Source: Neocallimastix sp. 'constans' (taxonomy: Eukaryota). Taken from it: a DNA stretch of 64,000 nucleotides. Position 1 is the first letter of the stretch; the number at the start of each line of letters is the position of its first letter. Made by a program: the position numbers and the translations under genes. Location of the stretch: positions 124,001 to 188,000 of the forward strand of contig JBODTK010000150.1 in the NCBI GenBank assembly GCA_050613775.1. Reading direction: 5' to 3'. Below, in pieces: positions 17,512 through 51,226 of this stretch. Under the pieces are notes generated by a model. That model did no database searches. It was not told the DNA's origin and worked only from the letters and a program-made list of their open reading frames with translations.

Positions 17512-17583
17512 TGGAGATATCGGGGATCGAACCCGAGGCTTCTTGCATGCAAAGCAAGCACTCTACCACTGAGTTATATCCCC
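17512..17583 (-). tRNA. trnA: tRNA-Ala (anticodon TGC)
   Basis: Reverse complement GGGGATATAACTCAGTGGTAGAGTGCTTGCTTTGCATGCAAGAAGCCTCGGGTTCGATCCCCGATATCTCCA folds as a cloverleaf with a G3:U70 pair, TGC anticodon and GGTTCGATCC T-loop. Confidence 0.96.
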
Positions 17584-17597
17584 AGTTGTTATTTTTG

Positions 17598-18606
17598 TGG
17601 TAAAGAATGAATTAATAATCTTTATTTTATTATTAATAATTCTTTACTAAATTGTACTTTCCTATATTCTTCATAACCTAAACCTCATTGTAAATTTAAT
17701 TTATTTTGATATAAATTAATTTTAACTTGTAAATAATGTAAATAAATTTTAATTAATTACTTTATTGTTATATTATTAAATATATGTATATATTAAAATA
17801 CAATTGTAAATATTAAAATTATACTTTTAAGATACTAAATTATTAAAAATATTAATTAAATATTATTATAAAAATTATTATAAAATTATTAAAATTATTA
17901 ATTAAATATTATTCTAAAAATTATTATAAATTATTAATATTATAAAATTATTAAAATTATTAAATATTATTATAAAAATTTATATATTATAACTATTAAA
18001 TATTATTATAAAATTATTAAGATTATTAATTAAATTTATTATTAAAAATTATTATTAAAAATTTTTACTTATTATAAAAATTATTATTTAAATATTATCA
18101 AATTTATTAATTAAATATTATAAAAATTTTATTTTATTTTGAAAATAATTACAAGTATTATTTAAAATAATTAAAGATTATTAAATTTATTATATTAATC
18201 TTTAAAAACAATTTATTTAACTTAAAAATATCAAAGAAAATAGTAAAAACTATTTTCTATATATTTATTTTATAATTATTTTTAATTAAATTATATTTGA
18301 ATATTATATTATTATATTTATAAAAATTAAAACAAAAATGAATTATTGATATAAAATTAATTCAATAATTCTATAAAATTACTTAAATTATAAACAATTA
18401 ATTATACTTTAAATTTATAAAAATATTGTAACAATTTCTTAAAAATTAAATGGGTGTACTTTAAATAAAAAAACTTTTATATTAATAAAAAAATAAAATA
18501 ATTCTTTATTAAAAATTATTTATTTTTTATTTAAAATCAAAGCAGGGTAATACCCGTCCCCCCCTGCTTGATTTTAAATATCTAAGTGTCAACCCCGAGT
18601 CTACCA
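17598..18606 (+). mobile_element. Solo LTR, family alpha (tRNA-proximal, unit 1)
   Basis: TGGTAAAG...TCTACCA, near-identical to the LTRs of 19906-25087; TSD tttg on both sides; starts 14 bp upstream of the tRNA. Confidence 0.93.
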
Positions 18607-18610
18607 TTTG

Positions 18611-19901
18611 TGATGCAGTATTTAAATAAAAAGAGAATATTATCAAGAAATAAAATTAAATTGTTAAAATTAAGATATAAAATAGTTTTATGATCAATAA
18701 CGTTACTAGGTTAATATGTTGAATTATATATTAATAATCCAACAATAATTAATTAATAATAATATAAAAATAATATAAGATAAATAGTTAAGTTATTTAA
18801 ACACTTAATATCTAAGAATATTTTAAATAATAATTTCTTTGAAGGATTTATGAAAATATTTATTTATTGAATTATTAGTATATAATTATTGTAAGTACAA
18901 TAACCTTACAAAGAACATAAAAGATAGATTTTTACATCTTTCTTTTATACTTTGTAAGTTACATAATAATAATATTTAATTATAAGATATTAATAATATA
19001 GTAATATGAATATTAATAAAATATTAAGATAATAACAATATCGATATGTTTAAAATATTTAATATAACTAAATAAATTTAATTTATAATTATATAATTAA
19101 TTTGAATAATTAAAAATAGTAGTTAATATATATGATGTAAACATATATATAAACATAATATAAATAAATACATGTGACGTCATATGTAGATAATTGAAAT
19201 TATTAATATAAATCTTATTTACTAATATTCTCAGAATTATTAGGCCTAAGATAATTCCTTAAATATTAAATAAGAATTTATATTAATTATTAATTATTTA
19301 AATATATATATTATTTATAATTAAATAAATAATATTTGTTAACTATTGAAATGTAAATAACTGAAATTGAGATTTCAATTCAGTTATAATTTCAACATAA
19401 ATATAATAAATAATTAGTTAAATTATATATGTATATTATAATAATAAATAGTAATATAAAAATTATTAAATTTATTTAATTAGTTAATAGCCAATAGGAT
19501 TTAATTTATAGTAAATTAGAAATTAGAAATATAAAAGAAAAATTATTATAATTCTTTAAAAAAAAAGGAGGTTTTTTAATTTAAAAAAAAAAAAATAGAG
19601 ATAAAATTGGTTAAAATAAATATATTTGGGGAATATATTTATTTATCAAAAATTTTAATAGTAATAAGTTAGTTAGAAATAAATAATTAATAAGATCTTT
19701 AATAACATTTTATTATAAAATTTGTATTACGACATAAATAATTTAAATAAATAAATAAAACGACAAAACTATAATTTTTTTTATATTTTGTTTTAATATT
19801 AACGTGTATTGTAATTATATATTTTTATATTAGAATATATTTTTATTTAATACAATCTTGCTAACCACAAAAACATTGATACTTATAAAAATAACGTATC
19901 A
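18611..19901. mobile_element. Solo LTR (unit 2) hosting a nested LTR
   Basis: TGATGCAG...CGTATCA termini, TSD tttg on both sides. Confidence 0.8.
18662..19397. mobile_element. Nested solo LTR, 5-bp-TSD class (inverted copy of the 42061 family)
   Basis: TGTTAAAA...TTTCAACA, TSD taaat (18657-61, 19398-402); reverse complement of 42061-42749. Confidence 0.88.
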
Positions 19902-20933
19902 TTTGTGGTAAAGAATGAATTAATAATCTTTATTTTATTATTAATAATTCTTTACTAAATTGTACTTTCCTATATTCTTCATAACCTAAACCTCATTGTA
20001 AATTTAATTTATTTTGATATAAATTAATTTTAATTTGTAAATAATGTAAATAAATTTTAATTAATCACTTTATTGTTATATTATTAAATATATGTATATA
20101 TTAAAATACAATTGTAAATATTAAAATTATACTTTTAAGATACTAAATTATTAAAAATATTAATTAAATATTATTATAAAAATTATTATAAAATTATTAA
20201 AATTATTAATTAAATATTATTCTAAAAATTATTATAAATTATTAATATTATAAAATTATTAAAATTATTAAATATTATTATAAAAATTTATTTATTATAA
20301 CTATTAAATATTATTATAAAATTATTAAGATTATTAATTAAATTTATTATTAAAAATTATTATTAAAAATTATTACTTATTATAAAAATTATTATTTAAA
20401 TATTATCAAATTTATTAATTAAATATTATAAAAATTTTATTTTATTTTGAAAATAATTACAAGTATTATTTAAAATAATTAAAGATTATTAAATTTATTA
20501 TATTAATCTTTAAAAACAATTTATTTAACTTAAAAATATTAAAGAAAATAGTAAAAACTATTTTCTATATATTTATTTTATAATTATTTTTAATTAAATT
20601 ATATTTGAATATTATATTATTATATTTATAAAAATTAAAACAAAAATGAATTATTGATAAAAAATTAATTCAATAATTCTATAAAATTATTTAAATTATA
20701 AACAATTAATTATACTTTAAATTTATAAAAAAATATAAATATTGTAACAATTTCTTAAAAAAAATTAAATATGTGTACTTTAAATAAAAAAAATTTTTAT
20801 ATTAATAAAAAAAAAATAAATAACTTTTAATAAAGAATTATTTTTTTTTTTATTTAAAATCAAAGCAGGGTAATACCCGTCCCCCCCTGCTTGATTTTAA
20901 ATATCTAAGTGTCAACCCCGAGTCTACCAAAAT

Positions 20934-20951
20934 TGGTGGAGATATCGGGGA
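20934..20951 (+). promoter_or_regulatory. Primer-binding site for tRNA-Ala(TGC)
   Basis: tggtggagatatcgggga is the exact complement of the last 15 nt of the 17512-17583 tRNA plus CCA. Confidence 0.93.
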
Positions 20952-23900
20952 AGGCTTTAATTGATTCATGTAGTAATTTAAGTATAATTACTCAACAATT
21001 TTTAGATAAGCTTCCGTCCGAATATGAACCTATTGATATTAGTCGTGGCAGAATTAGGTTGGCAACTAAGAATGATGATTACTCGGAAGGTTATATCATT
21101 CGGGTGCCAGTAAAGATTAATAATCTTGTATTAATGGTTAATTGTAGAATAGTAGAAAAGGAGGATCCTTTTTACGATATTCTAATTAACTTAAAAACCC
21201 AAATTGATTATAATTTGTTTATCCACCCCATTTTATATAGTTTGTGTCAAATTACTCCTGAGGGAGTAATTGACGTTATTGCACCTATTAATAATGATTA
21301 TGAAGATGAAGAAAAGTTGTTGTGTATGATTAAGGCTTTGGATGAGGATTCCAAAAAGAATGATTTAAAGAAAATTGAAGGATTATCTCCAAAGCAATAT
21401 ATTCATCATGAAATTTTCCTAAATACTTTAAATGAAAAATATAAAGATGAAATAATTAAAATTCTGGAGGAGAACTTAGAAATAGTTGCTACTTCTTCAG
21501 AAGAATTAACACCTTCTGATCTTCCTCCACATAAGATTAATTTAATTCCTGGTGCGAAACCAGTTAAGCAAAGGTGCTATAGATTAGTTAAATTTAAGTC
21601 GGATATACTTAAGGAGGAATTAATTAAATTAATTAATAAGAAATTAATTGAACCTTCTTGTTCCGAATGGTCATCGCCAATAGTGTTAGTACCGAAGAAG
21701 AACGGTAAATGGCGATTATGTATTGATTATCGTAAGGTTAATGATTTAACAGTTAAAGATTCTTATTCATTACCTTACATTGATGAGATATTTGATAGTT
21801 TAGATGGGGCACAGATTTTTACAACAATGGATCTTTACTCTGGTTATCATCAAGTTTTGATGGATGAGGAAAGTGTAGAAATTACCACCTTCACCACAAA
21901 ATTTGGTAACTACCAATTCAAGGTTATGCCTTTTGGTTTAACCGGAGCCCCAGCTACATTTCAAAGGGAAATGAATAGGATTCTTTTCCCATTTATAGGA
22001 AAGTTTGTTTTTAACTTTATAGATGATATTTTAATATACTCTAAGAGTATAAAAGAACACATAAGCCACATTAGGCAAGTGTTGGAAGTATTTCGCCAAC
22101 ACAAATTGAAAATTAACATTGAAAAATGTGCCTTTATGCAGACTGAAGTAGAAGTCTTAGGTCATAAGGCATCAGTGAAAGGTTTAAGTCCCCAGGATAG
22201 CAAAATTAAGGCTATCAAGGAGTGGGTAGCACCTGTTGATGTTCATGAATTACGATCTTTTCTTGGAGCAGTAGGATATTATAGAAACTTTATTGATAAA
22301 TATGCTCAAATCTCTGCTCCTTTATGTAAATTATTAAGAAAGAATGTTAAATATAAATGGAATAATGAACATCAACAAAGTTTTGATCTGTTAAAAGAAA
22401 AGTTAATAAATGCTCCAATTTTAAAATATCCAAGTTTTAATCAAAGGTTTATAATTAGAACGGATGCTTCCTATGAAGGTATTGGAGGAGTATTACTCCA
22501 AGAAGATTTAGAAACCAAAAAGGAACATCCAGTTCATTATATAAGTAGAAGTTTAAGTAAAGCCGAGAAAAATTATGGCATTACTGACTTGGAAGGAGCT
22601 GCATTAATTTATTGTATTACTAAGTTGAAATCTTATATATTAGGAAATCCTAATAAAACAGTAGTAATAACAGACCATAAACCTTTAATCAGTTTCTTTA
22701 AAAATAAGGAACCTAATAATGCTAGGCAAGCAAGATGGTGCTTAACTGTTAGTACCCTTGGTGTTGAAATTCAATATCAAATGGGTAAGAAAAATGTGTT
22801 AGCCGATGCATTATCTAGAATGAAGAAAAGAGCTGATTCTGTGGTATTGGCAACTAAGTTAACTTCAAAGGAAGAAGAAGAGTTGCTTTCAAAAACTATT
22901 AAAGACTTTATAAATGAAAAATTTGTTACGATAGATGGTGAAGATTACTTTGTTGATGGTAATGACTATCGTAAATTAATTACTGATCAAACGGAAAGAG
23001 TAAAACTTATTTTAGAAGCCCATAAGATAGGTCATGAGGGATATTATAAGACTTATCAAAGGCTTCGTAAAAGTTTTTATTGGAATAATATGGTGATGGA
23101 TATTAAAAGAGTGGTGCAAAGTTGTGACAAGTGTCAGTTGAATAGGTCACAACCATATCCAGAACCTACAGAAAATATTCCAACTAAAGTAGAAGGTCCT
23201 TTTATACATTTGGGTTTAGATATTATTGGACCTTTGATTAAAACGAAGAATAATAATCAATATATTATGGTTGTGGTGGATTACTTCACCAAATGGGTTG
23301 AAGCAGAACCCACGGAAAATATAACATCACAGGATGTGATTAAGTTCTTAATTAATGTGTTTGCTCGTCATGGTGTTCCACAGGTAATAACAACTGACAA
23401 TGGTGTTCAGTTCACCTCGGACATGACGAAAATATTTTTAGATCTCTATGATGTATATGTGAAGTTTATTTCCACATATCATCCTGAAAGTAATGGACTT
23501 ACGGAAAACCGTAATAAAGAGATCGGCAAGTTATTGAGGTTGTTGGGTTCTAAGAATAAGGATTGGGATGAAGTTTTACCATCCGCCTTATGGGCTCTTA
23601 GAACTACCAAAAATAAGGTAACAAAACATTCAAGTTTTGAGTTGGTTTATGGTAGGGAGGATCAGCAGCCTTTTGATATTGCTGCTAGACCTACCAAGGA
23701 TATTAATAAGTCATCGGATGAAGTGTTGTTAGAAAAATTTATAAATCATTACCGATGGACTTTAGAAGCAGCCGAAAATGTTAAAAATGCAAATAAGTAT
23801 TGGGCTGCTAGAAGAGAGGAAAAGAATAGTTTGAATGAAGGAAAAAGAATTAGGGAAGGTGATTTAGTTCTAGTTAGAAATTTTTCAAGAACTAAACTAG

Positions 23901-24040
23901 AACCTTATTTTGTTGGTCCTCTTAAAGTTATAAAAAAACAATTTAATACGGTTACCTTGGCTGATCCAAATTCTGGAATTCAAATGAATAGGAATGTTCA
24001 TTTGAAGAATATAGTCAAGTATAACTCAGCTTCGATGTAG
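20948..24040 (+). CDS. pol: Pol (partial protease, RT, RNase H, integrase), 5'-truncated
   Basis: LIDSCSN protease, WSSPIVLV/RLCIDYR/MPFGL/FIDD RT, TDAS RNase H, HHCC and D,D35E integrase, GPY/F-like KLEPYFVGP; PR-RT-RH-IN order is Ty3/Gypsy. Confidence 0.92.
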   Translation, partial: GKALIDSCSNLSIITQQFLDKLPSEYEPIDISRGRIRLATKNDDYSEGYIIRVPVKINNLVLMVNCRIVEKEDPFYDILINLKTQIDYNLFIHPILYSLCQITPEGVIDVIAPINNDYEDEEKLLCMIKALDEDSKKNDLKKIEGLSPKQYIHHEIFLNTLNEKYKDEIIKILEENLEIVATSSEELTPSDLPPHKINLIPGAKPVKQRCYRLVKFKSDILKEELIKLINKKLIEPSCSEWSSPIVLVPKKNGKWRLCIDYRKVNDLTVKDSYSLPYIDEIFDSLDGAQIFTTMDLYSGYHQVLMDEESVEITTFTTKFGNYQFKVMPFGLTGAPATFQREMNRILFPFIGKFVFNFIDDILIYSKSIKEHISHIRQVLEVFRQHKLKINIEKCAFMQTEVEVLGHKASVKGLSPQDSKIKAIKEWVAPVDVHELRSFLGAVGYYRNFIDKYAQISAPLCKLLRKNVKYKWNNEHQQSFDLLKEKLINAPILKYPSFNQRFIIRTDASYEGIGGVLLQEDLETKKEHPVHYISRSLSKAEKNYGITDLEGAALIYCITKLKSYILGNPNKTVVITDHKPLISFFKNKEPNNARQARWCLTVSTLGVEIQYQMGKKNVLADALSRMKKRADSVVLATKLTSKEEEELLSKTIKDFINEKFVTIDGEDYFVDGNDYRKLITDQTERVKLILEAHKIGHEGYYKTYQRLRKSFYWNNMVMDIKRVVQSCDKCQLNRSQPYPEPTENIPTKVEGPFIHLGLDIIGPLIKTKNNNQYIMVVVDYFTKWVEAEPTENITSQDVIKFLINVFARHGVPQVITTDNGVQFTSDMTKIFLDLYDVYVKFISTYHPESNGLTENRNKEIGKLLRLLGSKNKDWDEVLPSALWALRTTKNKVTKHSSFELVYGREDQQPFDIAARPTKDINKSSDEVLLEKFINHYRWTLEAAENVKNANKYWAARREEKNSLNEGKRIREGDLVLVRNFSRTKLEPYFVGPLKVIKKQFNTVTLADPNSGIQMNRNVHLKNIVKYNSASM

Positions 24041-25091
24041 CTTGAGTTTTAGAGGGGGCATCATGGTAAAGAATGAATTAATAATCTTTATTTTATTATT
24101 AATAATTCTTTACTAAATTGTACTTTCCTATATTCTTCATAACCTAAACCTCATTGTAAATTTAATTTATTTTGATATAAATTAATTTTAATTTGTAAAT
24201 AATGTAAATAAATTTTAATTAATCACTTTATTGTTATATTATTAAATATATGTATATATTAAAATACAATTGTAAATATTAAAATTATACTTTTAAGATA
24301 CTAAATTATTAAAAATATTAATTAAATATTATTATAAAAATTATTATAAAATTATTAAAATTATTAATTAAATATTATTCTAAAAATTATTATAAATTAT
24401 TAATATTATAAAATTATTAAAATTATTAAATATTATTATAAAAATTTATTTATTATAACTATTAAATATTATTATAAAATTATTAAGATTATTAATTAAA
24501 TTTATTATTAAAAATTATTATTAAAAATTATTACTTATTATAAAAATTATTATTTAAATATTATCAAATTTATTAATTAAATATTATAAAAATTTTATTT
24601 TATTTTGAAAATAATTACAAGTATTATTTAAAATAATTAAAGATTATTAAATTTATTATATTAATCTTTAAAAACAATTTATTTAACTTAAAAATATCAA
24701 AGAAAATAGTAAAAACTATTTTCTATATATTTATTTTATAATTATTTTTAATTAAATTATATTTGAATATTATATTATTATATTTATAAAAATTAAAACA
24801 AAAATGAATTATTGATATAAAATTAATTCAATAATTCTATAAAATTACTTAAATTATAAACAATTAATTATACTTTAAATTTATAAAAAAATATAAATAT
24901 TGTAACAATTTCTTAAAAAAAATTAAATATGTGTACTTTAAATAAAAAAAATTTTTATATTAATAAAAAAAAAATAAATAACTTTTAATAAAGAATTATT
25001 TTTTTTTTTATTTAAAATCAAAGCAGGGTAATACCCGTCCCCCCCTGCTTGATTTTAAATATCTAAGTGTCAACCCCGAGTCTACCATTTG

Positions 25092-26055
25092 TGGTAAAGA
25101 ATGAATTAATAACCTTTATTTTATTATTAATAATTCTTTACTAAATTGTACTTTCCTATATTCTTGATAACCTAAACTTAATAATAAAATTTAATTTATT
25201 TTGATATAAATTAATTTTAACTTGTAAATAATGTAAATAAATTTTAATTAATTATTTTATTGTTATATTATTAAATATATGTATATTAAAATACAATTGT
25301 AAATATTAAAATTATACTTTTAAGATACTAAATTATTAAAACTATTAATTAAATATTATTATAAAAATTATTATAAAATTATTAAAATTATAAAATTATT
25401 AAAATTATTAAATATTATTATAAAAATTTATATATTATTACTATTAAATATTATTATAAAATTATTAAGATTATTAATTAAATTTATTATTAAAAATTAT
25501 TATTAAAAATTTTTACTTATTATAAAAATTATTATTATCAAATTTATTAATTAAATATTATAAAAATTTTATTTTATTTTGAAAATAATTACAAGTATTA
25601 TTTAAAATAATTAAAGATTATTAAATTTATTATATTAATCTTTAAAAACAATTTATTTAACTTAAAAATATCACGGAAAATAGTAAAAACTATTTTCTAT
25701 ATATTTATTTTATAATTATTTTTAATTAAATTATATTTGAATATTATATTATTATATTTATAAAAATTAAAACAAAAATGAATTATTGATATAAAATTAA
25801 TTCAATAATTCTATAAAATTACTTAAATTATAAACAATTAATTATACTTTAAATTTATAAAAAAATATAAATATTGTAACAATTTCTTAAAAATTAAATG
25901 TGTGTACTTTAAATAATAAAATTTTATATTAATAAAAAAAAAATAAATAACTTTTAATAAAGAATTATTTTTTTTTTATTTAAAATCAAAGCAGGGTAAT
26001 ACCCGTCCCCCCCTGCTTGATTTTAAATATCTAAGTGTCAACCCCGAGTCTACCA
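25092..26055 (+). mobile_element. Solo LTR, family alpha (unit 4)
   Basis: Same sequence family and termini; TSD tttg. Confidence 0.92.
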
Positions 26056-26059: not shown

Positions 26060-26656
26060 TGGTACGGGACGCCCTGATAACTATGAAATAAGCAATAAAT
26101 TTGAGAATAAAGTTATAAGATTAAATATTTAAATTTTTAAAAAAATAAACAATTATAACCTTAAATTAGATAAAAAGGAATATAAAAAGATGTAAATAAG
26201 AAAGAAAATAATTATGGGAGGAGAGAGAGATCAGAAAGAAAAGAAAGAAAAAAAATATAAATAGGACAAAAATATAAAAAATTTAGTGTAGAATGGAGAT
26301 ATAATAAGAAATAAAAATATATAGTTAGTTAGATTATAATAAAAATGTAGTAATTAAAATAATGTATAATTAAGTAATATAATAAATAAAAAAAAATATT
26401 AATAAAATAATAATAAAAAAATATTTTAATAATAAATAAATAAAAGTTATTAATTTATGTGTTTATTCAATTTAGAATAATTTATCTTAACTAGAGTAGT
26501 GTCAAAAAAGCCCAAGATACAATAACACGTACCAAAAATGGTGGAGAATCCGGGCGTTGACACGTTAGGATAAATTGAAAATAAATTGAATAAAAAAAAA
26601 ATAAAAAAAAAAAAATTATAATAAAAAAAAAATATATAGATAGATATAATTATCAT

Positions 26657-26710
<54 letters not shown>

Positions 26711-27017
26711 ATAATAAAAAAATATATAGATAGATATAAATATCATAATTAAAAAAAAAAAAAAAAATTAATTGTTGGTATTCATTAATACTTAAAAAAA
26801 TATATAAATAATAATAATAATTAGTTATATAGATTTAATAGTAAAGATATATTATAGAGTAAATAAAATTTTAAGAGAATATAAATTTTAGGTATAATTA
26901 TTATATTATAGGCTTATAGGGAGTATAAGCTATAATAAATATTAGATTATAATAAAATTGTATATTGATTAAAAAGAAATTATTCAAATAATATTTTAGT
27001 ATTAAATTTATATAGGA

Positions 27018-27074
<57 letters not shown>

Positions 27075-28904
27075 TAATTATATATATTTAATAGGAAAGG
27101 TATAAAATAAAATAAATAAAATTTTAAGAGAATATAAATTATAGGTATAATTACTATATTATAGGCTTATAGAGATGAGATAAGCTAATAATAATTAATA
27201 GATTATAATAAAATTATATATTGATTAGAAAGGAATTTTTCAAATTATATTCAAATATAAAATTATATACAAATATTATATAAAATAAAATACTATAATT
27301 CGATGGATATGTATATATATATAAAAATAACAAAAAAAAAAAAAATTAGTAATTAAAAAAAAAAATAAAACTAAATAATAATATTTAATCAATTATAATA
27401 GGAATTAAATTATATTAATAATAGAATTACTTGATTAGTATTTATATATATTTATTATATTAAATTTATAATAATTAAATAATTACAAGACATTATAAAA
27501 TTATATAACATTATTAAAAATTACTAACTAAAAATATAACTAATTACAAGTGAATAAAAATTTGAATGAATAATCAAAATGGAATTATCTGAGAATTTAA
27601 ATAAGAAATTAAATCAACTGTGCAAAAAGTGTAACGACTTCAATAAAACCATTATAAAAGAATTTGAAAATTTATCTAATGATATTATAACTATTAATTT
27701 GTATAAAAATTATATATCAGAAATAAAACCTCCTAAATATTCGAAATCTGTAATACGAAATAATAATAAAATTTTTAAAATTTATTATGTTGAGAATTGT
27801 AGAGATTTTGGAAGATTAGAAAAATACTTAAAATTCAATAAGATACAAACCAAAAATAAAATCTCTATACAAGAGGAACAAATTATAATTAATAGAAATA
27901 ATAGTAATTTTAACCTACTTAAAAGATTCAGAAGTTATTATAATTCGGATATAATATTAATAATAATAAAAGAAAGGAAAATATTATTTGTGTGAAAGAA
28001 GTCGAGAATAAACCAAGTGTAGTTGATAAAAGAACATCTTATATACAGGGCGATAACGAAATTAAGGAGCAAGAACCAAGTCATAGAAATGAGAGTCTAC
28101 AAAGAGTTTGTGGAGAAGAAGAAAAGAAAGGCGATAATGTTAAGAAAGAAAAATTAATAGTGATGAAGATTAAACCTGTTAATAAAGAAATAAAAGAAGA
28201 AAATACTAATTCAACTTTGATTAAGTCAAGAATAAAAAAAATAAAAATTAATTCTAAGAAACATAATAATATAATTATTAATAAAAATAAAGCAAAGAGT
28301 ATTAAAATTATTGTTCTAAAGGAAAATTTGAGTAAAACTTGTAATAATAGAAAGGATACTAAAACTTTAGAACGTAACTATAAAATTAGAAAGAAGAAAA
28401 AGACCCATATTTAAGTAAATTGAGACTTCAAAGGATGAAGTCTAAATTTAGGGGGGAAGTCATGGTACGGGACGCCCTGATAACTATGAAATAAGCAATA
28501 AATTTGAGAATAAAGTTATAAGATTAAATATTTAAATTTTTAAGAAATAAACAATTATAACCTTAAATTAGATAAAAAAGAATATAAAAAGATGTAAATA
28601 AGAAAATAATTATAAAGGGAGAGAGAGATCAGAATGAAAAGAATATAAATAGAACAAAAATATAAAAAAATGTAGTGTAGAATGGAGATATAATAAGAAA
28701 TAAAAATATATAGTTAGTTAGATTATAATAAAAATGTAGTAATTAAAATAATGTATAATTAAGTAATATAATAAATAAAAAAAAATTAATAAAATAATAA
28801 TAAATAAATAAAAGTTATTAATTTATGTGTTTATTCAATTTAGAATAATTTATCTTAACTAGAGTAGTGTCAAAAAAAAGCCCAAGGTACAATAACACGT
28901 ACCA
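26060..28904 (+). mobile_element. Non-autonomous LTR retrotransposon (TRIM/LARD-like) (unit 5)
   Basis: LTRs 26060-26534 and 28463-28904 (TGGTACG...CGTACCA), PBS tggtggagaatccgggcg at 26539, PPT aggggggaag 28450-28459, TSD tttg; no pol. Confidence 0.9.
27579..28414 (+). pseudogene. Two overlapping ORFs inside the non-autonomous element; possible degenerate gag-like remnant
   Basis: 138-aa and 140-aa K/N/E-rich ORFs in different frames; no motif I can recognise. Confidence 0.3.
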
Positions 28905-40488: not shown

Positions 40489-42005
40489 TGTAAGAATCTA
40501 TAATTATTTGTTAGCAAATAATTATATTTTCTTAGTTTGTTAAGATAATAACTGAATTTCAATTCAATTTCAATTTCAATAATTCAGTTATTTAAATTTC
40601 AATATTAATGAATAATAATATATAATAATTATTATTAAATTAACTTTATTAAAATATTTAGGAATTAGTCTAGGCCAACTAATTGACTAAATATTATTTA
40701 CATATTGAAATTAACATATATTAAATAATGTAAACACGTGATTGTCATATTAAATTAATTTCTACATATTATATTTTAATTATAAAATATAATATTTAGC
40801 TATATTAGATTCTTTTATTTATATTAAATATTTATATAATTATCTTATTTTATATTATCAATATCAAACTTATATTAATACTATTACATATTCATATTAA
40901 TAATTAATATTTTAATAATTAATTATTTTATATAAATACATGTTTAAATCTTTTGATTAATCCTTTGTAGGATTATTGTAATTTAAATTATAGTAATAAT
41001 TATATAAAATAATAATGTAATAAAATATTATTAAGATTAAATAAAAATTATATTTTAATTAAAAATTTATTTATAAAATTTACTAATAACAATATGTTTT
41101 AAATAAGAGTAAAATTAAATTATTAATTAATTACTATAATTTGGCATCTTGACCTAATCGTTAAGACCAAATTATCTAAAAACTTTAACATAGTTAAGTT
41201 ATTATAACTATAACTTTATTTAATTACATATAATATTTATTAAATTTATTTAATTTAATTTTAAATATTCATTAATTTAACAAAATTTATTTAATTAATT
41301 TTAAATAATATATTTACAATATGTTAAATTCTCTACTGTAACTAATGTATTTTGTATTGTATTTTATTCTGTATTTTATAATGTATTCTGTATTTTATTA
41401 ACTATTTAATTTTATATTTTTAATATAAGGATAAATTATATGATCGAAATATCTTTTATTATTTTATTCTTTTATTTTCGATCATTAAATTGGAAAATCG
41501 GTTAATTAAGATTTTTTCCAATTACTTTTTAGAAGTAATCGGTTTTACTTAATTAATGCGATGATCGATATGGATAGAATATCGATCGAAAACTTATCTA
41601 GGTTTTTCTATTTAATCTTTTCCTAGATAAGAGATTTGTTAAGATTAGAAAACCCTTTCTTATTTAACCTTATTTTCATAAAAAAAATATAAATAAGGCT
41701 CTTGAGTTCTCTTTGAGAAATCAAGAGTTATTATTATAAAAAACATAGTTATAATAGTAACAATTTTATATTTTTAACTTTAATAAATTAATAAAAATAT
41801 TTTATTCAAAAACATATTTTTAAAATCAATTTATACAAACAATTCTTCTCTTACTTTTGTGTTATTATTATAATTAATTTTATAATAAACTCTACTCTAA
41901 AGGTAAAAAAATTTTATTTTATTTTATTTTCTCAACTTAATGAATTAGTCGTTAAGTTGTAGTTAATAATTCTATTTTGAGTTAGTTCTTAATAGAATTA
42001 TTACA
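40489..42005. mobile_element. Solo LTR (unit 10), TGTAA..TTACA family, hosting a nested LTR
   Basis: Strong similarity to 49346-50303; right TSD ttttg. Confidence 0.85.
40538..41190. mobile_element. Nested solo LTR, 5-bp-TSD class
   Basis: TGTTAAGA...TTTAACA; TSD tagtt; near-copy of 43497-44156. Confidence 0.88.
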
Positions 42006-42060
42006 TTTTGATAGATAACAAAATTATTAAATTAAAATAAATAATAAAGAACAAATTCTT

Positions 42061-42749
42061 TGTTGAAATTATAACTGAATTGAAATCTCAATTTCAGTTA
42101 TTCACATTTCAATATACATTTAATTAATAATTAATATAAATTCTTATTTAATATTTAAAGAATTATCTTAGGCCTAATAATTCTGAGAATATTAGTAAAT
42201 AAGATTTATATTAATAATTTCAATTATCTACATATGACGTCACATGTATTTATTTATATTATGTTTATATATATGTTTATATCATATATATTAATTACTA
42301 TTTTTAATTATTCAAATTAATTATACAAATTAAATTTATTTAATTATATTAAATATTTTAAATATATCGATATTGTTATTATTTTAATATTTTATTAATA
42401 TTCATTTTACTATATTATTATTATCTTATAATTAAATACTATTATTATGTAACTTACAAAGTATAAAAGAAAGATGTAAAAATCTATCTTTTATGTTCTT
42501 TGTAAGGTTATTGTATTTACAATAATTATATACTAATAAATCAATAAATAAATATTTTCATAAATCCTTCAAAGAAATTATTATTTAAAATATTCTTAGA
42601 TATTAAGTGTTTAAATAACTTAACTATTTATCTTATATTATTTTTATATTATTATTAATTAATTATTGTTGGATTATTAATATATAATTCAACATATTAA
42701 CCTAGTAACGCTATTAATCATAAAACTATTTCATATCTTAATTTTAACA
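42061..42749. mobile_element. Nested solo LTR, 5-bp-TSD class
   Basis: TGTTGAAA...TTTTAACA; TSD ttctt. Confidence 0.88.
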
Positions 42750-42756
42750 TTCTTGT

Positions 42757-43491
42757 TGTTGAAATTACAACTGAATTAAATTTCAATTTCAATTAATTTC
42801 AATTAAAATTATTAAAAACAAAATAATTAATAAAAATTTATAATTCATTAATTATTCTTTAAATTTTATTTATTTTATAATATTATAAGTTATTTGATCA
42901 TCTTAGGACCAGCTTAGGCCTACTGATTCTAATGATATCATATTAAACTTAAATATTATTAATAAATAAAATATTTATTAACATGAATCATTTGGTCATG
43001 TCATCCTTGATTCATAAATTAATGTTTATGTATTAATTTATGTTATATTGATTTAATTAATTATTAATTATTAATTACTATATTAAATATTTAAATTTAA
43101 TATTATATTATATATATTAGCTAATATATTAGATTAAAAAATATAATTTATTTATATTAAACATATTCTTATACTAAATATTATTATTATCAACTTTATA
43201 TTATTATTATCAATATTCTCAAACCTACAAAGTATAAAAAGAAAATTCAAATTTATCTTTTTGTTCTTTGTAAGGTTATAGTTAACCTATTATAATATAA
43301 CTATATATTTTTATTAATAAATAAAAATTTTTATCATATCAAACCAATTATTAGTTTTAATTAAGTGTTAAATTAACAAATTTAACTTTATAACTCTTTT
43401 ATTTTAGTAATTTACTTATATCTATATAGTTATATTATATAGATATATCAACCTGATTCCTCGTTAAATTCAATCTGTTTATTTTTTAACA
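42757..43491. mobile_element. Nested solo LTR, 5-bp-TSD class (diverged relative of 42061)
   Basis: TGTTGAAA...TTTTAACA; TSD cttgt. Confidence 0.85.
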
Positions 43492-43496
43492 CTTGT

Positions 43497-44156
43497 TGTT
43501 AAGATAATAACTGAATTTCAATTCAATTTCAATTTCGATAATTCAGTTATTTGAATTTCAATATTAATAAATAATAATAATATAATAATTATTATTAAAT
43601 TAACTTTATTAAAATATTTAGGAATTAGTCTAGGCCAACTAATTACTAAATATTATTAATATATTGAATTTAATATATATTAAATAATGTAAACACGTGA
43701 TTGTCATATTAAATTAATTTCTACATATTATATTTTAATCATAAAATATAATATTTAGCAATATTTGATTCTTATATTTTATTTATATTAAATATTTATA
43801 TTATTATCTAACTTTATATTATCAATATCAAACTTATATTAATATTATTTACATATTCATATTAATGATTAATATTTTAATAATTAATTATTTTATATAA
43901 ATACATGTTTAAATTCTTTTGATTAATCCTTTGTAGGATTATTGTAATTTAAATTATAGTAATAATTATATAAAATAATAATGTAATAAAATATTATTAA
44001 AATTAAATAAAATTTATATTTTAAAGAAAAACTTAATTATAAAATTTACTAATAACAATATGTATTAAATAAGAATAAAATTAAATTATTAATTAATTAC
44101 TATAATTTGGCATCTTGACCTAATCGTTAAGACCAAATTATCTAAAAACTTTGACA
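43497..44156. mobile_element. Nested solo LTR, 5-bp-TSD class
   Basis: Near-copy of 40538-41190; TSD cttgt. Confidence 0.88.
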
Positions 44157-45149
44157 CTTGTCTAACTTAACCCAAAAATTAATTCATTCTAAAAAAAAAA
44201 AATTAAATCCATATTAAAGAAAATTTAATTAAATAAAAATAATTAAAATAAAATAATAATAATTAATTAATCATTAATAATTTTAATTAAAAACTAAAAT
44301 AAATTAATAAATAATATTTTTCTAAGACTACAAATAAACAAAATAATAAACAAATTTAATAAATTATAAATAACAAATAAACAAACTTATAAACATCTCA
44401 AAATTAAAATTAAATAGTTAAATAATTTTTAAGTTACTTTTATTTAAAATAATGATTATTTTATTCATTTTATAACTCAACTTTTATAAACAAATTGTAA
44501 TTAAATAACATTTTAAAACTCATCTTTATTAATATTTTAATTGTAAATATTGTTTAATTTAATAATAAATTATTCTTTATTTCTCTTTTATTAATTTTAT
44601 TATTTTTAATGTAAATAGTTTAAAATCAAAGAAAAATATAAAAACATGTAAATATTTCTTATAAATTATTCTTTATTATTAATTATTTAATAAATTATTA
44701 TAGATATTTTATTAGTTTTAATAATCAAAAAAATATGATTATTAATTATTTAATAAATTATTATAGATATTTTATTAGTTTTTAATAATCAATTTTTATG
44801 ATTATTAATTATTTTGATAAATTATTATATATTTTATTAGTTATTAATAATCAATTTTATTATTAAAATTTAAAATAAATTAGTATAAATAATAAATATT
44901 TCATTTTATTATTTTATTAGTTTTAATAATTATTTTATTAATTTAAACAAAATTAATTATTAAATAAATAAAGATTAATAGTAAAATAAAAATAAATTTT
45001 TTTAATAAAACATTTTTGTGTTTAATAATAAAACATATTTATTTTTTTTTTAAATTTCTTAAATCAATTTTATTCAGTATTTATCCTTTTATTCACTTCT
45101 ACAAAATTTAATTTTTGTAGATTAAGAATATTAGGTATAAATCATTTTT

Positions 45150-45617
45150 TGATACGTGACCACTATAAAAATGGTATTTAGGTAGATTCTTTAGGTTAAA
45201 GAAATACTTAAATATTATTGGTCAATAATAATTTTATAATAATATATATAATTTTAGAATAATAATTATTAAACGGAGAATTCTTTTATTTATAAGTTTA
45301 TACTAATGATGATAAATTAATTCACATAAATAGCTATTTTTATATTTTATTTTAGTATAGTTAAAAGAGATATTATATATATTTGAGATAATTAATTATA
45401 ATATTTATATAAAAGAGTAATAATAATAATTGATGTAATAATTAATAATTAATAATAAATAAAGAGAACATTAAAAAGATATAATTATTACTTTATTTTG
45501 TATTATTGTATGTGTTATTTCTAATTAATATTAGAATATATTATTTTGTCATAATTCCTTATTGTCATTGCCCATAAATAAATATTAATTTAGATACATA
45601 AATAAAATATCGTATCA
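45150..45617. mobile_element. Solo LTR (unit 12)
   Basis: TGATACG...CGTATCA; related to 28909-29400; TSD tttt. Confidence 0.85.
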
Positions 45618-45621: not shown

Positions 45622-45992
45622 TGGTACAAGACCAATTGAAAAATGAAAATTAAATATGACTAAATTTACAAAAAAAATAGAAAATCAAATTAATCCATAA
45701 AAGGATAAATTAAATTGAAATTTATATATAAAGTGTAAAATTAGAAATTATTAAGACTCTCTCTTTTCCACATATAACTTTATTAAATGTAAAAAATTAG
45801 ATTGAATGACAATTGATCTAAATTGAGATTTCAATTGATCAAAAATAAAAATTTAATAAAAATTAAATAAACAATTTATAAAGTAGAATTTAAGTATTTA
45901 GTTATAATTTACAACTTTAGTGTGAATTACTTATTATTGTGAATATTAATATAAAAAGATTTAAATTTTAAAAATTCATTTACATTGCACCA
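45622..45992. mobile_element. Solo LTR (unit 13)
   Basis: TGGTACAA...TTGCACCA inverted termini; TSD tttt. Confidence 0.78.
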
Positions 45993-45996: not shown

Positions 45997-46731
45997 TGAT
46001 ACTGATTGGAATTCTTAAGCATAAAATTATTAGAAAGCTTGAATAACATCTAACCTATTCAACAACAAATTAATAAATTAAAATTTGAAATTAAAATCAT
46101 AATAAAAAAATTTATTTTAATTAAATTCTAAAACCCGAAATTATACTTTAATTCTATTTTAATATTTAAAATAATGAAATACTAATGTTAATTAATTTCT
46201 CTTTTTAATTAAAAGTAAATAGTTTGTAAACAATTTTCTCTTTTTTTTATTATTTTGAATTCTTTGTTTATAATAATTCTTGTATTAATTGTTTATTTGT
46301 TTATTTTATTGTTTATTTTTATAAATATAATTATTCTTAATTGTTTTATTATTAAAAATTGTAAATACTTTAAATTATTGCAAAAATATAAATACTTGTA
46401 AATATTTTATAAAATTAATTTCTCGTTGTTATTAGAAATGTAATAAAAAAAATAATAACCAAATATTATTAATAAATAATAATAAAAATTAATAAATAAT
46501 AATAAAAAATTAATAAATATAATAGTAAAAATTAATACTAAACACAAAAGAAATGTATAATTTTGAAAAATTAATAACAATTCAGTGTTAAGCTAGAATA
46601 ATAATAACTTAATTATTAATAATAATAAAACAAATTCATTTATATTAAATTTTATATTAAATCAAACTTGATACATCTATTATCACTTTTGAAGTAATAA
46701 CTTCAAATTAAGATAATAGAATCGTTTGTCA
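45997..46731. mobile_element. Solo LTR (unit 14), mismatched flanks
   Basis: TGATAC...TTTGTCA; left tttt, right tgtg. Confidence 0.72.
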
Positions 46732-46735: not shown

Positions 46736-47749
46736 TGGTAAAGAATGAATTAATAACCTTTATTTTATTATTAATAATTCTTTACTTAATTGTACTTTCC
46801 TATATTCTTGATAACCTAAACTTAATAATAAAATTTAATTTATTTTGATATAAATTAATTTTAACTTGTAAATAATGTAAATCAATTTTAATTAATTACT
46901 TTATTGTTATATTATTAAATATATGTATATATTAAAATACAATTGTAAATATTAAAATTATACTTTTAAGATACTAAATTATTAAAACTATTAATTAAAT
47001 ATTATTATAAAAATTATTATAAAATTATTAAAATTATTAATTAAATATTATTATACAAATTATTATAAACTATTAATATTATAAAATTATTAAAATTATT
47101 AAATATTATTATAAAAATTTATTTATTATAACTATTAAATATTATTATAAAATTATTAAGATTATTAATTAAATTTATTATTAAAAATTATTATTAAAAA
47201 TTATTACTTATTATAAAAATTATTATTTAAATATTATCAAATTTATTAATTAAATATTATAAAAATTTTATTTTATTTTTGAAAATAATTACAAGTATTA
47301 TTTAAAATAATTAAAGATTATTAAATTTATTATATTAATCTTTAAAAACAATTTATTTAACTTAAAAATATCAAAGAAAATAGTAAAAACTATTTTCTAT
47401 ATATTTATTTTATAATTATTTTTAATTAAATTATATTTGAATATTATATTATTATATTTATAAAAATTAAAACAAAAATGAATTATTGATATAAAATTAA
47501 TTCAATAATTCTATAAAATTACTTAAATTATAAACAACTAATTATACTTTAAATTCATAAAAAAATATAAATATTGTAAATATTTCTTAAAAATTAAATA
47601 TGTGTACTTCAAAAATAAAATTTTATATTAATAAATAATAAATACTTTTAATAAAAAGAATTTTTTTTTTTTGTTAAAATCAAAGCAGGGTAATACCCGT
47701 CCCCCCCTGCTTGATTTTAAATCAATAAGAATCAACCCCGAGTCTACCA
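46736..47749 (+). mobile_element. Solo LTR, family alpha (unit 15)
   Basis: Family alpha sequence; TSD tgtg. Confidence 0.92.
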
Positions 47750-47751: not shown

Positions 47752-48778
47752 TGATAAAAAATGCCCAAATACTGTTCTTTTGGTTATTCATCTTAAATGA
47801 TTTATTTAACCCTTAAACAAATTATTTGATTCTTTATTCTTTTGGAACTTTCTATATTCTAATAAATTAATCTATATTCCTAATTAGTACAAATTAAATT
47901 ATACTAATTAAAAAAGTATATTTAATATTAATTCCTTATCTATGCTACCTTTATTATTCTTATCTATATTTTATTATTATTAAAATCCTTATCAATATTA
48001 TATAGTTTATTTTATCAATTTTCTTTATAGTTTATCAAAATCTTATCAATATTTCTTTTATTAATATTAAACTTATCAATATTAAATATTTCTTTGGAAA
48101 ATTCCAAATTAAAAATTGTATTAATGATTACTAATGAAAAATTAAACATAAAAGAAAATAGTTATATTATTATTATATGTTTTATTATAAATATTATATT
48201 ATAAATTTGATGAAATGATTATAAATTTTATATTAACAATTTAAATAATATTATTTTTCTAAACTAAGTAAAATTAAACTTTAGGATTAAATAAATATTA
48301 CTAAACCACAGAATTAACTTCTGTAAAATAAAAAAATTTGTCTTTTAAAATATATAATTAAGTAGATTAGTAATAAATAATTAGTAATAGATTAATATAT
48401 AAGTATTATTTATTATAAGTTAAATAATAATTATATTAATAATAAAAAAAATAATATAAAATATTTAATAATTAATTTTTATTATACAAAGAAATGGCTT
48501 TACCATTTCTATTATTTTAAGAAAAAAAAATATAAATAACAGTAAAAAAAAAAAAAAAATTATTTTTTTTATATGTTGAAATTTTAACATTGTAATTTTT
48601 AAATAAAAAAAAAAATTAATAAAAGGATTATAAAAAAATAAAATTTTAAAAAGTTATCTTGTTTATTTATTTATTTATTTTTTTTTGTTTATATTAATCT
48701 TATATTTTTATTTTTATTATTGTTTTAATTTTATTTATAATTTTTGAATAATTTTTATAAAAACCCCGAACCAAACCA
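47752..48778 (+). mobile_element. Solo LTR of the element-B family (unit 16)
   Basis: Reverse-complement similarity to 52007-52985 and 59290-60267. Confidence 0.88.
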
Positions 48779-48780
48779 AA

Positions 48781-49335
48781 TGTAAAAGGTACGTTTATTA
48801 TTAACTAAAATAACGAATAATAATTAAATCTAAAGGCTAAGATAACTTAACACCTCTCTATCCGAGTTGTTAATAATAAACACTAAATTAATTAATTTAT
48901 AACTATTATTTCCTATTACACTAGAATATAGCGCAGCACTTTATAACACTATTTGTTATCAGTTGCTGGGCTTACACTGAGTAATATATTTTATTTAATA
49001 ATTATATTTTATTTATTAATATTAATATTTTTATCAACAATTTACGTTAATAGTAACGCTAGTGCGTTACAGTTACAAGTTCAATTGTTATTTATACATG
49101 TCAATAATATTATGATTGGTAAATAATTTAATTTAACTTAGTTTACTAATCACTAAATAAAATGTATTTATCTAAATATTTAACTATATAATTAATTATA
49201 AAATAATAAAATTTAATGTACGAAATTAACAAAAGATTTTATTTGATTAGCCAAAATTGCTAGCTGTTTAGAGATACGTTATGTAACCAAAGAACTATCA
49301 TTGGATAGGCTTGGAGTTACCATGTATCTATTACA
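48781..49335. mobile_element. Solo LTR-like unit (unit 17)
   Basis: Imperfect inverted termini TGTAAAAGGTAC...GTATCTATTACA; flanks compatible with TSD tgaa. Confidence 0.65.
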
Positions 49336-49345
49336 TGAAATTTTG

Positions 49346-50303
49346 TGTAAGAAATAATAATTATTTACTAATAAATAATTATTATTTCTTAGTCTTTATA
49401 ATTATTGATAATAATTATAAATTTATTTAAATTATAATTAATTCATACATTGAGATATTATTATCAAATTTATTATAATTGTAATTATTCATACACTTAA
49501 ATAATATTAGAAAATTTATTTAAATAATTATTATGTGTACACTTATTAATATTATTAATTTTATTTAGTTATTCATTTAATTATCAAGTTAATGTAAACA
49601 TTAGTTTTATTTATTTTTTACATTGTACATTTAAAAGAACAATTAATAAGTTTCTGTATTTTTTATAATTCTGTATTCTAGTTTAAAGATAGGTTTAGAT
49701 TAGATTTTAAAAATAATATTTAGAAAAATAGAATAATTTAGATCATTCCGGTTATTATTGATTTTTCCTTTTATTTGATGATCTAAATTAAAATTTAGGA
49801 AATCGATATATTAAGGTTTTATCCAAATATAAAATAATATATTTGGTTTTACTTAATATATACGATGATCGATATGAATAGAATATCGATCAAAAAACTT
49901 ATCTAGTTTTTTCTTCTAATCTTTTTCTAGATAAGATATTTTTTAAGATTAGAAAACCCTTTTTATTTAACCTTATTTCCATAAAAAAATATAAATAAGG
50001 CTCTTGATTTCCCTTTAAGAAATCAAGAGTTATTATTATAAAAATATAGTTATAATAATAGCAATTTTATATCTTAAACTTTAATAAATTAATAAAACAT
50101 TTTATTCAAAAACATATTTTTTAAACCAAATCTATCCAAATATTCCTTCTTTTACTTTTTGTGTTGTTATTATAATTAATTTTATAATAAACTCTTTTTT
50201 AGGTAAAATTTTTATTTTTATTTTATTTCTCAACTTCATGAATTAGTCATTAAGTTGAAGTTAATAATCATATTTAGTAATAGAACTTAGTATGATTATT
50301 ACA
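49346..50303. mobile_element. Solo LTR (unit 18), TGTAA..TTACA family
   Basis: 5-bp TSD ttttg (49341-45, 50304-08). Confidence 0.85.
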
Positions 50304-50306
50304 TTT

Positions 50307-51226
50307 TGTTAAGGAATGAACAAATAATGTTAATTTTATTATTTTTCATAAAAATAACTTAACCACTAAAATTAAATTATTTATTTCCTTACTTGGGGAA
50401 CTTTCTTATGTTCTATTACTGCCAAATTATTACTAATATTAAATTTATTATTATTAATATAAATTCTTTATTAATATCAATACTTTATTATTAAAATTAA
50501 TATGATATTATTAATATCAATATTATTATCAATATCTAGTTTTATTAATATGATTTATTCTATCAATATTTTATTATTAAAGAAAATTTTATTTTACAAA
50601 TATTACCAATACAGATTATTTATTATTAATAAAAATTAATATAATTAATAATGATTTAAAAATATTTTACTTAAATCCATGATCCTTGTCATTAAAATTA
50701 GTAATACTTCCTTCCAAAATACACCCTATTTATAATAAGATTAATAATAGATAATAATCTAAAATACTTTTATTTAAAAATAGTATAAAATTAAATAATA
50801 CTCTATTACTAATAGTTCTGTAAAAGTAATAAAATTATTTTTAAAATATATTATCACTACAATTAATAATAAATAGTTTAGAATTTAATAATATGTAATA
50901 ATTATTTATTATAATAAAATAGATTATGAATTTATAATTTAAATACAATTCAAACATGTAACTCTAAGATATTCTAAAGAAATGGCTTGACCATTTCTAA
51001 CGATAAAAAAAAATATAAATAGATGAGAAAATTGTATTTTAGAAAAATAATCTGAAAAAAATATAATCTTATTAAAGAAATTAATTTATTTTTAGTTTTT
51101 AATTGAATAATTTTTATTAAATAAATAAATAAAATATTTTAAAAAAAGATATATTTTAATTTTTAATTTTTTTTTATTTTAGTGTTTATTTCTATATTTA
51201 TTATTATTCTGTCCCGAACCTCAACA
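50307..51226 (+). mobile_element. Solo LTR (unit 19, most distal of the left stack)
   Basis: TGTTAAGG...CGAACCTCAACA; 3' end and aaagaaatggctt.accatttcta motif shared with the B-family LTR. Confidence 0.82.

What the first reader, a model, noticed from the sequence alone, without database searches (positions are those of the whole stretch)
17512..51226. tRNA-anchored retrotransposon 'ticker tape': 19 LTR elements stacked in chronological order upstream of one tRNA gene
Seen: from 14 bp upstream of tRNA-Ala, 19 units of roughly a dozen distinct LTR families abut with no host DNA between them, only TSD remnants: tttg x5, tttgtgtg, gtg, tgtg, tg, ttt, ttttt, tttt, tttt, tgtg, tg, aa, tgaaattttg, ttt. 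All orientable units point away from the tRNA. Inference: replaying units 14 to 1 as successive tRNA-proximal insertions reproduces every junction. Flank atttt becomes atttttg (unit 10, TSD ttttg absorbs the previous LTR's TG), then atttttgtg (unit 9), then atttttgtgtg (unit 7), then resets to atttttg (unit 6, leaving tttgtgtg at 29401). That is exactly the flank now at 17591-17597. Insertion sites stay 12-18 bp from the tRNA. Established: yeast Ty3 and Dictyostelium DGLT-A integrate just upstream of tRNA genes. A 34-kb polarised multi-family stack that grows at one end, like a CRISPR array or integron, is not something I know to be described.
Basis: partly seen in the sequence, partly recalled or inferred. 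Interest (0 to 1): 0.92.

Follow-up and report, generated by a model that had tools for sequence, protein, structure and literature searches.

The report
Retrotransposon stack growing at a tRNA
Nineteen retrotransposon copies from about a dozen families sit head-to-tail over 34 kb, starting 14 bases in front of a tRNA gene in a likely gut fungus, and wherever their junction letters fix an order the nearer copy is the later one, likely because new copies keep landing at the tRNA gene's start as yeast Ty3 does.

Summary
The replay fits J1-J13; 1 of 200,000 shuffles does. It breaks at J14: unit 14 has unmatched target duplications, a likely recombination seam. The junctions fix only a partial order: 20 of 78 proximal pairs, all nearer-is-younger, none reversed. 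LTR divergence shows no gradient (0.29, 2.3, 0.24%). The coding units are chromodomain-less Ty3/gypsy elements. tRNA-upstream targeting (Ty3, DGLT-A), oriented tandems (TRE5-A) and push-down clusters (WHO) are published; the scale, the multi-family log, the two windows and this host were not found in nine searches. Genome-wide targeting, strain polymorphism and long-read support are untested. The scan noted a two-element case earlier in another probable gut fungus (e1-8067551).

The parts
17512..17583 (-). tRNA-Ala(TGC) gene, the anchor; T7 terminator 10 bp downstream
17584..17597 (.). 14-bp flank; its last four bases are the present target duplication; the last TG came from an LTR end by the replay (inferred)
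17598..18606 (+). U1, solo LTR, family A
18611..19901 (+). U2, solo LTR of a Ty3/gypsy family with another PBS type; oriented through L013 (71% over 554 bp)
18662..19397 (.). nested 'H' solo LTR in U2, 5-bp duplication, 65 bp from the tRNA when U2 was first; inverted relative to the other four
19906..25087 (+). U3, family A, two LTRs (3 differences in 1024), PBS to tRNA-Ala, gag missing, pol frame open (1043 aa)
25092..26055 (+). U4, solo LTR, family A
26060..28904 (+). U5, family C, two LTRs differing at 10 of 439 sites plus 7 gaps; PBS and PPT, no pol
28909..29400 (.). U6, solo LTR, family D (81% to U12); high copy in other runs
29409..30241 (.). U7, solo LTR, family E, 5-bp duplication; high copy in other runs
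30245..31091 (.). U8, solo LTR; termini like the Ty3/gypsy LTR of L012
31096..40486 (+). U9, full-length Ty3/gypsy element: gag (CCHC), -1 frame to pol, RT-RH-IN, no chromodomain; LTRs differ at 2 of 837
31833..32280 (-). SINE with tRNA-like head and 16-bp duplication in the 5' LTR of U9 only
40489..42005 (.). U10, solo LTR, family E, 5-bp duplication
40538..41190 (.). nested 'H' solo LTR in U10, 5-bp duplication, 63 bp from the tRNA when U10 was first
42009..45144 (.). U11, solo LTR holding three nested LTRs
42061..44156 (.). three stacked 'H' solo LTRs (42061-42749, 42757-43491, 43497-44156), each with a 5-bp duplication, at 64, 66 and 66 bp
45150..45617 (.). U12, solo LTR, family D
45622..45992 (.). 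U13, solo LTR
45997..46731 (.). U14, LTR with unmatched duplications (TTTT left, TGTG right): likely recombinant, the seam of the log
46736..47749 (+). U15, solo LTR, family A, the most diverged copy (2.3-3.6% from the others)
47752..48778 (+). U16, solo LTR, 93% to the LTR of the full element at 52007-60267
48781..49335 (.). U17, solo LTR; a relative is stacked twice in L012
49346..50303 (.). U18, solo LTR, family E, 5-bp duplication
50307..51226 (+). U19, solo LTR, 65% to the LTR at 52007
51227..52006 (.). spacer between the two stacks: copia-like gag-protease fragment (minus strand) with near-identical inverted 17-bp ends
52007..64000 (-). second stack facing the first: full element with identical LTRs (52007-60267) and a second element from 60272, same 4-bp junction on both sides of the first

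Best explanation
This is a head-to-tail stack of LTR retrotransposons in front of a tRNA-Ala gene, likely built by Ty3/gypsy integrases that are steered to the gene's start region and add each new copy between the gene and the previous copy. Shown: the layout, the 4- or 5-bp duplications, left ends 12-18 bp from the mature tRNA for U1-U14, one orientation in 9 of 9 orientable units, and a nearer-is-younger order wherever the junctions force one. Inferred: (1) the integrase docks on the Pol III initiation factors (TFIIIB/TFIIIC), as Ty3 and DGLT-A do, in a fixed orientation; (2) the tRNA promoter is internal, so the gene stays a target after each insertion; (3) most copies then collapse to solo LTRs by LTR-LTR recombination, which keeps the duplications; (4) a second LTR group ('H', 5-bp duplication, either orientation, possibly copia) lands 63-66 bp upstream, inside whichever LTR is first at the time, perhaps on the first nucleosome as Ty1 does; (5) recombination between copies in the stack deletes stretches, giving the seam in U14 and perhaps the unlike LTR pair of U5.
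For: Replay of 13 junctions, 1 of 200,000 shuffles. Forced orders 20:0 and 4:0; six absorptions of the right-hand TG, none of the left-hand CA. Distance 12-18 bp against 13-18 bp for 18 of 20 DGLT-A copies (PMC6101501). RT-RH-IN order without chromodomain; best solved-structure sequence match Ty3 Gag-Pol, E 1e-98. Nested LTRs at host offsets 51, 49 and 52 in three unrelated LTRs with four different target sequences; three random offsets fall this close in 1e-4 of trials. Families with different PBS types share the site. The opposite stack has the same junction logic. L012, from another sample, shows three abutting LTR units with U8-like and U17-like ends. TRE5-A is shown to insert between a tRNA gene and an older copy, 5' end towards the gene (PMC5391098).
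Against: One anchored locus only; no genome is held. 0 of 7 related contigs L011-L017 hold a tRNA gene (they are 3-6.5 kb and mostly end in or near LTRs). No age gradient: U5's LTR pair is about ten times more diverged than U9's. 58 of 78 proximal pairs are not ordered by the junctions. The log breaks at J14, so the distal five units may have grown at another anchor. The fold search places the integrase with foamy-virus and Ty3 integrases in general and shows no targeting feature. No long read or contig spans the stack.
Confidence: 0.8

Rival explanations
1. Self-targeting: the elements insert at the 5' end of an existing LTR, and the tRNA gene is only where the first copy happened to land.
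For: All insertion points lie within a few bases of the previous LTR's start, which this model also gives. The 'H' offsets (49-54) could be measured from the LTR start rather than from the tRNA. L012 shows a stack with no tRNA gene on the contig.
Against: If any LTR start were a target, inner junctions would be hit too, yet every forced order runs one way (20:0, 4:0). The targets are ends of a dozen unrelated LTRs. After drifting to 18 bp the site returns to 14 bp. The distance equals that of DGLT-A. The 'H' spread is 3 bp measured from the tRNA and 5 bp from the LTR start, a small difference.
Confidence: 0.11
2. The stack is an assembly artefact or a product of tandem recombination among repeats, not of successive integration.
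For: AT-rich, high-copy LTRs (depths in the thousands against 30-60 for single variants); no listed contig spans the stretch laid; U14 and U5 do look recombinant.
Against: A mis-join would not leave 13 plus 6 matching 4-5 bp duplications that replay in order, nor five nested LTRs each with its own duplication. The family A copies differ from each other by 0.3-3.6%, so they are not one collapsed repeat.
Confidence: 0.04
3. Untargeted insertion into a gene-free island, with survivors kept because they do no harm.
For: The SINE in U9 and the copia-like spacer show that other elements land in the region.
Against: Random insertion would nest elements at scattered points inside 34 kb. Instead 18 of 18 junctions are LTR end to LTR start within 10 bp, and a scan for H-type nested LTRs found them only in U2, U10 and U11, at offset 49-54 or stacked on that site (three further low-complexity candidates in that scan had no homology support).
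Confidence: 0.02

Closest known systems
DGLT-A of Dictyostelium discoideum (Ty3/gypsy, no chromodomain)
   Same: 13-18 bp upstream of the mature tRNA for 18 of 20 copies (PMC6101501); solo LTRs upstream of tRNA genes; repeat use of one tRNA gene noted in a table footnote (PMC5006619)
   Different: Either orientation (PMC5911963), one family, 20 copies in the genome; here one orientation and about a dozen families at one gene, in a fungus
Ty3 of Saccharomyces cerevisiae; Tj1 of Schizosaccharomyces japonicus
   Same: Ty3/gypsy elements at the Pol III start site; Tj1 and tRNA genes cluster together in centromeres (PMC4600332); Tfc1 contact affects Ty3 orientation (PMC6101501)
   Different: Ty3 inserts in both orientations and uses a +1 frameshift; Tj1 self-primes. 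Here gag and pol stand in a -1 relation, the primer is mostly tRNA-Ala, and the passages read describe no multi-family end-to-end stack
TRE5-A of D. discoideum (L1-like, non-LTR)
   Same: Strict orientation, 5' end facing the tRNA 5' end; new copies insert between the gene and the older copy and form tandems (PMC5391098)
   Different: Non-LTR, about 47 bp upstream, tandems of few copies; no solo-LTR log
WHO element clusters at FBA1 in Torulaspora and Lachancea
   Same: Multi-family cluster grown at one anchor, newest nearest, older ones pushed away and decaying (PMC7282813)
   Different: Homing endonucleases and gene conversion at a protein gene, not integrase-driven retrotransposition at a tRNA gene
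Ty1 of S. cerevisiae (for the nested 'H' LTRs)
   Same: Second window further upstream of the tRNA gene, on positioned nucleosomes (PMC5911963); 5-bp duplication (recalled for Ty1)
   Different: Ty1 uses a window of about 1 kb; 'H' falls in 63-66 bp in 5 of 5 cases; its superfamily is not shown because only solo LTRs are present

Membership tests
Ty3/gypsy LTR retrotransposons (U3, U9, elements at 52-64 kb) | LTRs with TG...CA ends, PBS, PPT, short target duplication | tested here: met
Ty3/gypsy LTR retrotransposons (U3, U9, elements at 52-64 kb) | pol order RT - RNase H - integrase | tested here: met
   Pfam RVT_1 417-577, RT_RNaseH 640-768, Integrase_H2C2 and rve 851-1014 in U9
Chromoviruses (Skipper type) | chromodomain after the integrase | tested here: not met
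   no chromodomain family at E<=0.01 in 3 of 3 pol proteins scanned
Ty3/DGLT-A-type Pol III start-site targeting | insertion about 13-18 bp upstream of the mature tRNA | tested here: met
   12-18 bp for U1-U14 by replay; DGLT-A figure from PMC6101501
Ty3/DGLT-A-type Pol III start-site targeting | genome-wide association with Pol III genes | not testable with these tools
   no genome held; metagenome scan gave 1 true relative in 9 hits, a 3' LTR start; 0 of 7 related contigs hold a tRNA gene
Ty3/DGLT-A-type Pol III start-site targeting | integrase or RNase H binds TFIIIB/TFIIIC | not tested
   host factor sequences not at hand; the fold search shows only a general integrase fold
Ty3/DGLT-A-type Pol III start-site targeting | insertion in either orientation | tested here: not met
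   9 of 9 orientable units point away from the tRNA
TRE5-A-type tandems | fixed orientation and push-down tandems | tested here: met
   PMC5391098
TRE5-A-type tandems | non-LTR element, about 47 bp upstream | tested here: not met
   LTR elements at 12-18 and 63-66 bp
Ty1/copia (nested 'H' LTRs) | 5-bp target duplication, TG...CA ends | tested here: met
   5 of 5
Ty1/copia (nested 'H' LTRs) | integrase before RT in pol | not testable with these tools
   only solo LTRs in the window
CRISPR array or integron | dedicated capture enzyme and uniform repeat or att site beside the array | tested here: not met
   junctions are variable target duplications and each coding unit brings its own integrase

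The most novel reading that the evidence does not exclude
Anaerobic gut fungi carry their own radiation of tRNA-gene-targeted LTR retrotransposons with two fixed landing windows (12-18 bp, strictly oriented, shared by Ty3/gypsy lineages with different primers; 63-66 bp, a second LTR group). tRNA genes across the genome would then anchor polarised stacks of tens of kilobases whose junctions log the order in which element families were active, and these stacks would hold much of the repeat DNA of these genomes.
Probability: 0.5. Interest if true: 0.8.

Novelty: new variant of a known kind. Interest (0 to 1): 0.64.

Why it matters
It points to tRNA-gene targeting by LTR retrotransposons in an early-branching fungal lineage whose LTR elements a 2026 review still lists as largely uncharacterised (PMC13728883). 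It gives a natural, base-resolved record of insertion order across a dozen families, which makes family succession, orientation control, solo-LTR formation rates and the failure of LTR-pair dating directly testable. The nested 63-66 bp window suggests two targeting systems working on one gene. A site-specific, harmless landing pad would also be useful in fungi that lack good genetic tools (own judgement).

Tried and rejected
Whole-genome tRNA/LTR mapping: no genome held. Metagenome scan with the family A LTR start: 9 hits, 8 chance matches, 1 true (L006, 99.5% to U3's pol and 3' LTR), no tRNA context; its record is not held for more sequence. Viral collection: 1 distant integrase, 32%. Prokaryote genome collection: 8 loci, 7 of them AT-rich close relatives binned into MAGs, none of the 7 with a tRNA gene. 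Contigs of 4 runs laid on 28820-30190: families D and E are high copy; no listed piece spans the stretch; two contigs cross J6 with only 21 letters beyond it and 16-17 differences, below the tool's bridging rule, so not counted; one contig shows an E-type start preceded by an LTR-like end and 5 letters, a hint of another stack only. Presence or absence of the newest units in other strains was not obtained. Age gradient from LTR pairs: not seen; family A distances to U15 fall with position (3.6, 3.1-3.4, 2.3%), but the five-copy tree is unrooted and weak. Integrase model (pLDDT 82) and fold search: generic, not informative on targeting. 'The tRNA is a copied primer': rejected (no CCA, own terminator, wrong side of the LTR). 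'PBS homology guides insertion': rejected (sites lie outside the gene's 5' end with duplications, and the U2 family has another PBS). Eight further ARAGORN calls at a relaxed threshold were treated as noise (Rfam finds only the tRNA-Ala). The S. osmophilus preprint passages held nothing on stacks. Earlier findings by place, relatives, sequence and a second word search were empty.


Full report
Host and setting. The window is mostly 9-17% GC outside coding stretches. No genome is held. The closest named relatives of the U9 integrase are Orpinomyces sp. models (52-58% over the integrase), among about 100 close clusters from metagenomes, and runs holding the neighbouring host DNA are mostly animal faeces metagenomes (11 of 18 holders). 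An anaerobic gut fungus (Neocallimastigomycota) is therefore likely; this is inference.

The observation. A tRNA-Ala(TGC) gene lies at 17512-17583 on the minus strand with its own terminator and no CCA. Three have two LTRs (U3, U5, U9); 16 are solo LTRs. Self-comparison groups them as A (U1, U3, U4, U15), D (U6, U12), E (U7, U10, U18), U16/U19 with the element at 52007, and singles: about a dozen families. U3 and U9 encode RT, RNase H and integrase in Ty3/gypsy order with no chromodomain; Ty3 Gag-Pol is the best solved-structure sequence match. Gag and pol stand in a -1 relation with a TTTAAAC/T overlap (slippery-site form recalled). The four pol proteins in the window are 72-78% identical. 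Orientation: U3, U5 and U9 by PBS and PPT; U1, U4, U15, U16 and U19 by homology; U2 through L013, whose 71% identical LTR is followed by a PBS and an integrase 53% identical to U9's. All 9 point away from the tRNA; 9 units cannot be oriented and U8 only by its termini.

The log. Removing units from the tRNA side and asking that the last 4 or 5 flank bases equal the first bases after the unit works for U1-U13, with 5-bp duplications for the E units U7 and U10 and 4 bp for the rest; left ends stay 12-18 bp from the mature tRNA. One of 200,000 shuffles of these junctions replays. The replay fails at J14. U15-U19 replay from a flank ending ...tgaaattt, and only the observed order of 120 does. U14 thus has unmatched duplications, the usual mark of recombination between two insertions (established knowledge). 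The distal units may have grown at the same gene (the two flanks can be joined into a 20-bp original, giving 16-22 bp) with a stretch later deleted, or at another anchor; I cannot tell.

How much order is proven. Replay from one end assumes what it tests, so I allowed removal at any junction. About 28 million of 6.2 billion histories of U1-U13 fit. They force 20 of 78 pairs (U1-U9 after U10 and U11, U10 after U11, U7 after U8), all nearer-is-younger, none reversed; the result is the same with free duplication length. The distal block forces 4 of 10 pairs the same way, taking the inferred flank as its left context. Six junctions absorb the right neighbour's TG; none of 18 starts with the left neighbour's CA. 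Growth at the tRNA end is thus supported; the order within U1-U6 and U11-U14 is not fixed by sequence.

Five solo LTRs of another group ('H', 653-736 bp, TGTT...ACA ends, perfect 5-bp duplications) are nested in U2, U10 and U11 at host offsets 51, 49 and 52-54, three of them stacked on one site. Adding the replayed flank gives 65, 63, 64, 66 and 66 bp from the tRNA. The hosts are unrelated and the four target sequences differ; three random offsets fall within 5 bp in 1e-4 of trials. The simplest reading is that each host was once first in line and that 'H' aims at a fixed distance from the gene. Aiming at a fixed distance from an LTR start is not excluded. One of the five is inverted.

Against. 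LTR pairs differ by 3 of 1024 (U3), 10 of 439 plus 7 gaps (U5) and 2 of 837 (U9); U5 exceeds the more distal U9 (p=0.0007). A SINE entered one LTR of U9, so not every event is at the tRNA end. All readable pairs are young and the frames are open, so the stack likely grew fast.

Other loci. The right end of the window holds a second, opposite stack with the same junction on both sides of an intact element. L012, a contig from another sample, has a Ty3/gypsy 3' LTR with U8-like ends joined with no spacer to a U17-like LTR, followed by another U17-like start; none of L011-L017 holds a tRNA gene (0 of 7). Contigs of 4 runs show families D and E at high copy but do not bridge the junctions. An earlier AI note (e1-8067551) reports two LTR elements 16 bp upstream of a tRNA-Leu in another probable gut fungus; I did not check it and do not count it as evidence. 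Whether the newest units differ between strains remains untested.

What is known. Passages read: PMC5911963 (targeting windows, DGLT-A in either orientation, Ty1 on nucleosomes, Ty3 and TFIIIB); PMC6101501 (18 of 20 DGLT-A at 13-18 bp; Tfc1 and orientation); PMC5006619 (repeat use of one tRNA gene); PMC5391098 (oriented TRE5-A tandems; new insertions at 91 of 98 occupied genes); PMC7282813 (WHO push-down clusters); PMC7175516; the S. osmophilus preprint (nothing relevant); PMC13728883; abstract and background of PMC4600332. No supplements were read. Navaratna et al. 2024 on gut-fungal LTR elements was seen only as a reference line and is not held; it may bear on novelty. Nine searches found no report of tRNA targeting in these fungi or of a multi-family LTR stack of this kind; the library lacks most subscription journals.

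Verdict. The feature is real. It works like Ty3/DGLT-A targeting with TRE5-A-like polarity and WHO-like accretion; the coding units are Ty3/gypsy elements but not Ty3 or DGLT-A. New are the host lineage, the fixed orientation of LTR elements, a dozen families sharing a 7-bp window over 34 kb, the readable junction log and the 63-66 bp window. The targeting mechanism is inferred from one anchored locus. New variant of a known kind; interest 0.64.

Noticed in passing
window 51227-52006: The spacer between the two stacks is a copia-like gag-protease fragment whose two ends carry near-identical inverted 17-bp sequences starting with TG. Both stacks end on these. They may be termini of another mobile element or of a duplicated tRNA upstream region; unexplained.
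   Followed up: partly
window 52007-64000: Second stack in the opposite orientation: an intact element with identical LTRs and a further element behind it, same 4-bp junction on both sides; predicts a tRNA gene to the right of the window.
   Followed up: partly
window 31833-32280: tRNA-headed SINE with A and B boxes and a 16-bp duplication in one LTR of U9; it has no LTR inserted upstream of it, although it could be a Pol III target.
   Followed up: partly
window 35500-36066 and 36030-39626: U9's pol is split into two frames, unlike the element at 53009-57016. A 99% identical database protein of the same length as the second frame (P0001, 1191 aa, 45 members) hints that the split is a family trait, not an error.
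   Followed up: no
window 20934, 32404, 59282: Three families have an 18-nt PBS matching the very tRNA-Ala(TGC) that anchors the stack; U5 matches only 9 nt and the U2 family has another PBS.
   Followed up: yes
window 33062 (+ strand): A B-box-like motif lies in U9's long leader (32.4-34.6 kb), which also has GC-richer structured-looking stretches.
   Followed up: no
L011-L017: Seven AT-rich retrotransposon contigs of this clade are binned into bacterial and archaeal MAGs, likely contamination from gut fungi. L012 5245-6251 is a three-unit LTR stack.
   Followed up: partly
window 17584-17597: On the tRNA's own strand the repeated target reads CAAA and every LTR presents its terminal CA there; a CAA start motif for Pol III is recalled, not tested. 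An LTR end may thus supply the next start site and explain the 2-bp drift.
   Followed up: no
window 2146-2904 (-) and 11379-15810 (+): Host genes: a GDSL esterase and a folliculin-interacting protein (FNIP) gene that ends about 1.7 kb downstream of the tRNA.
   Followed up: no
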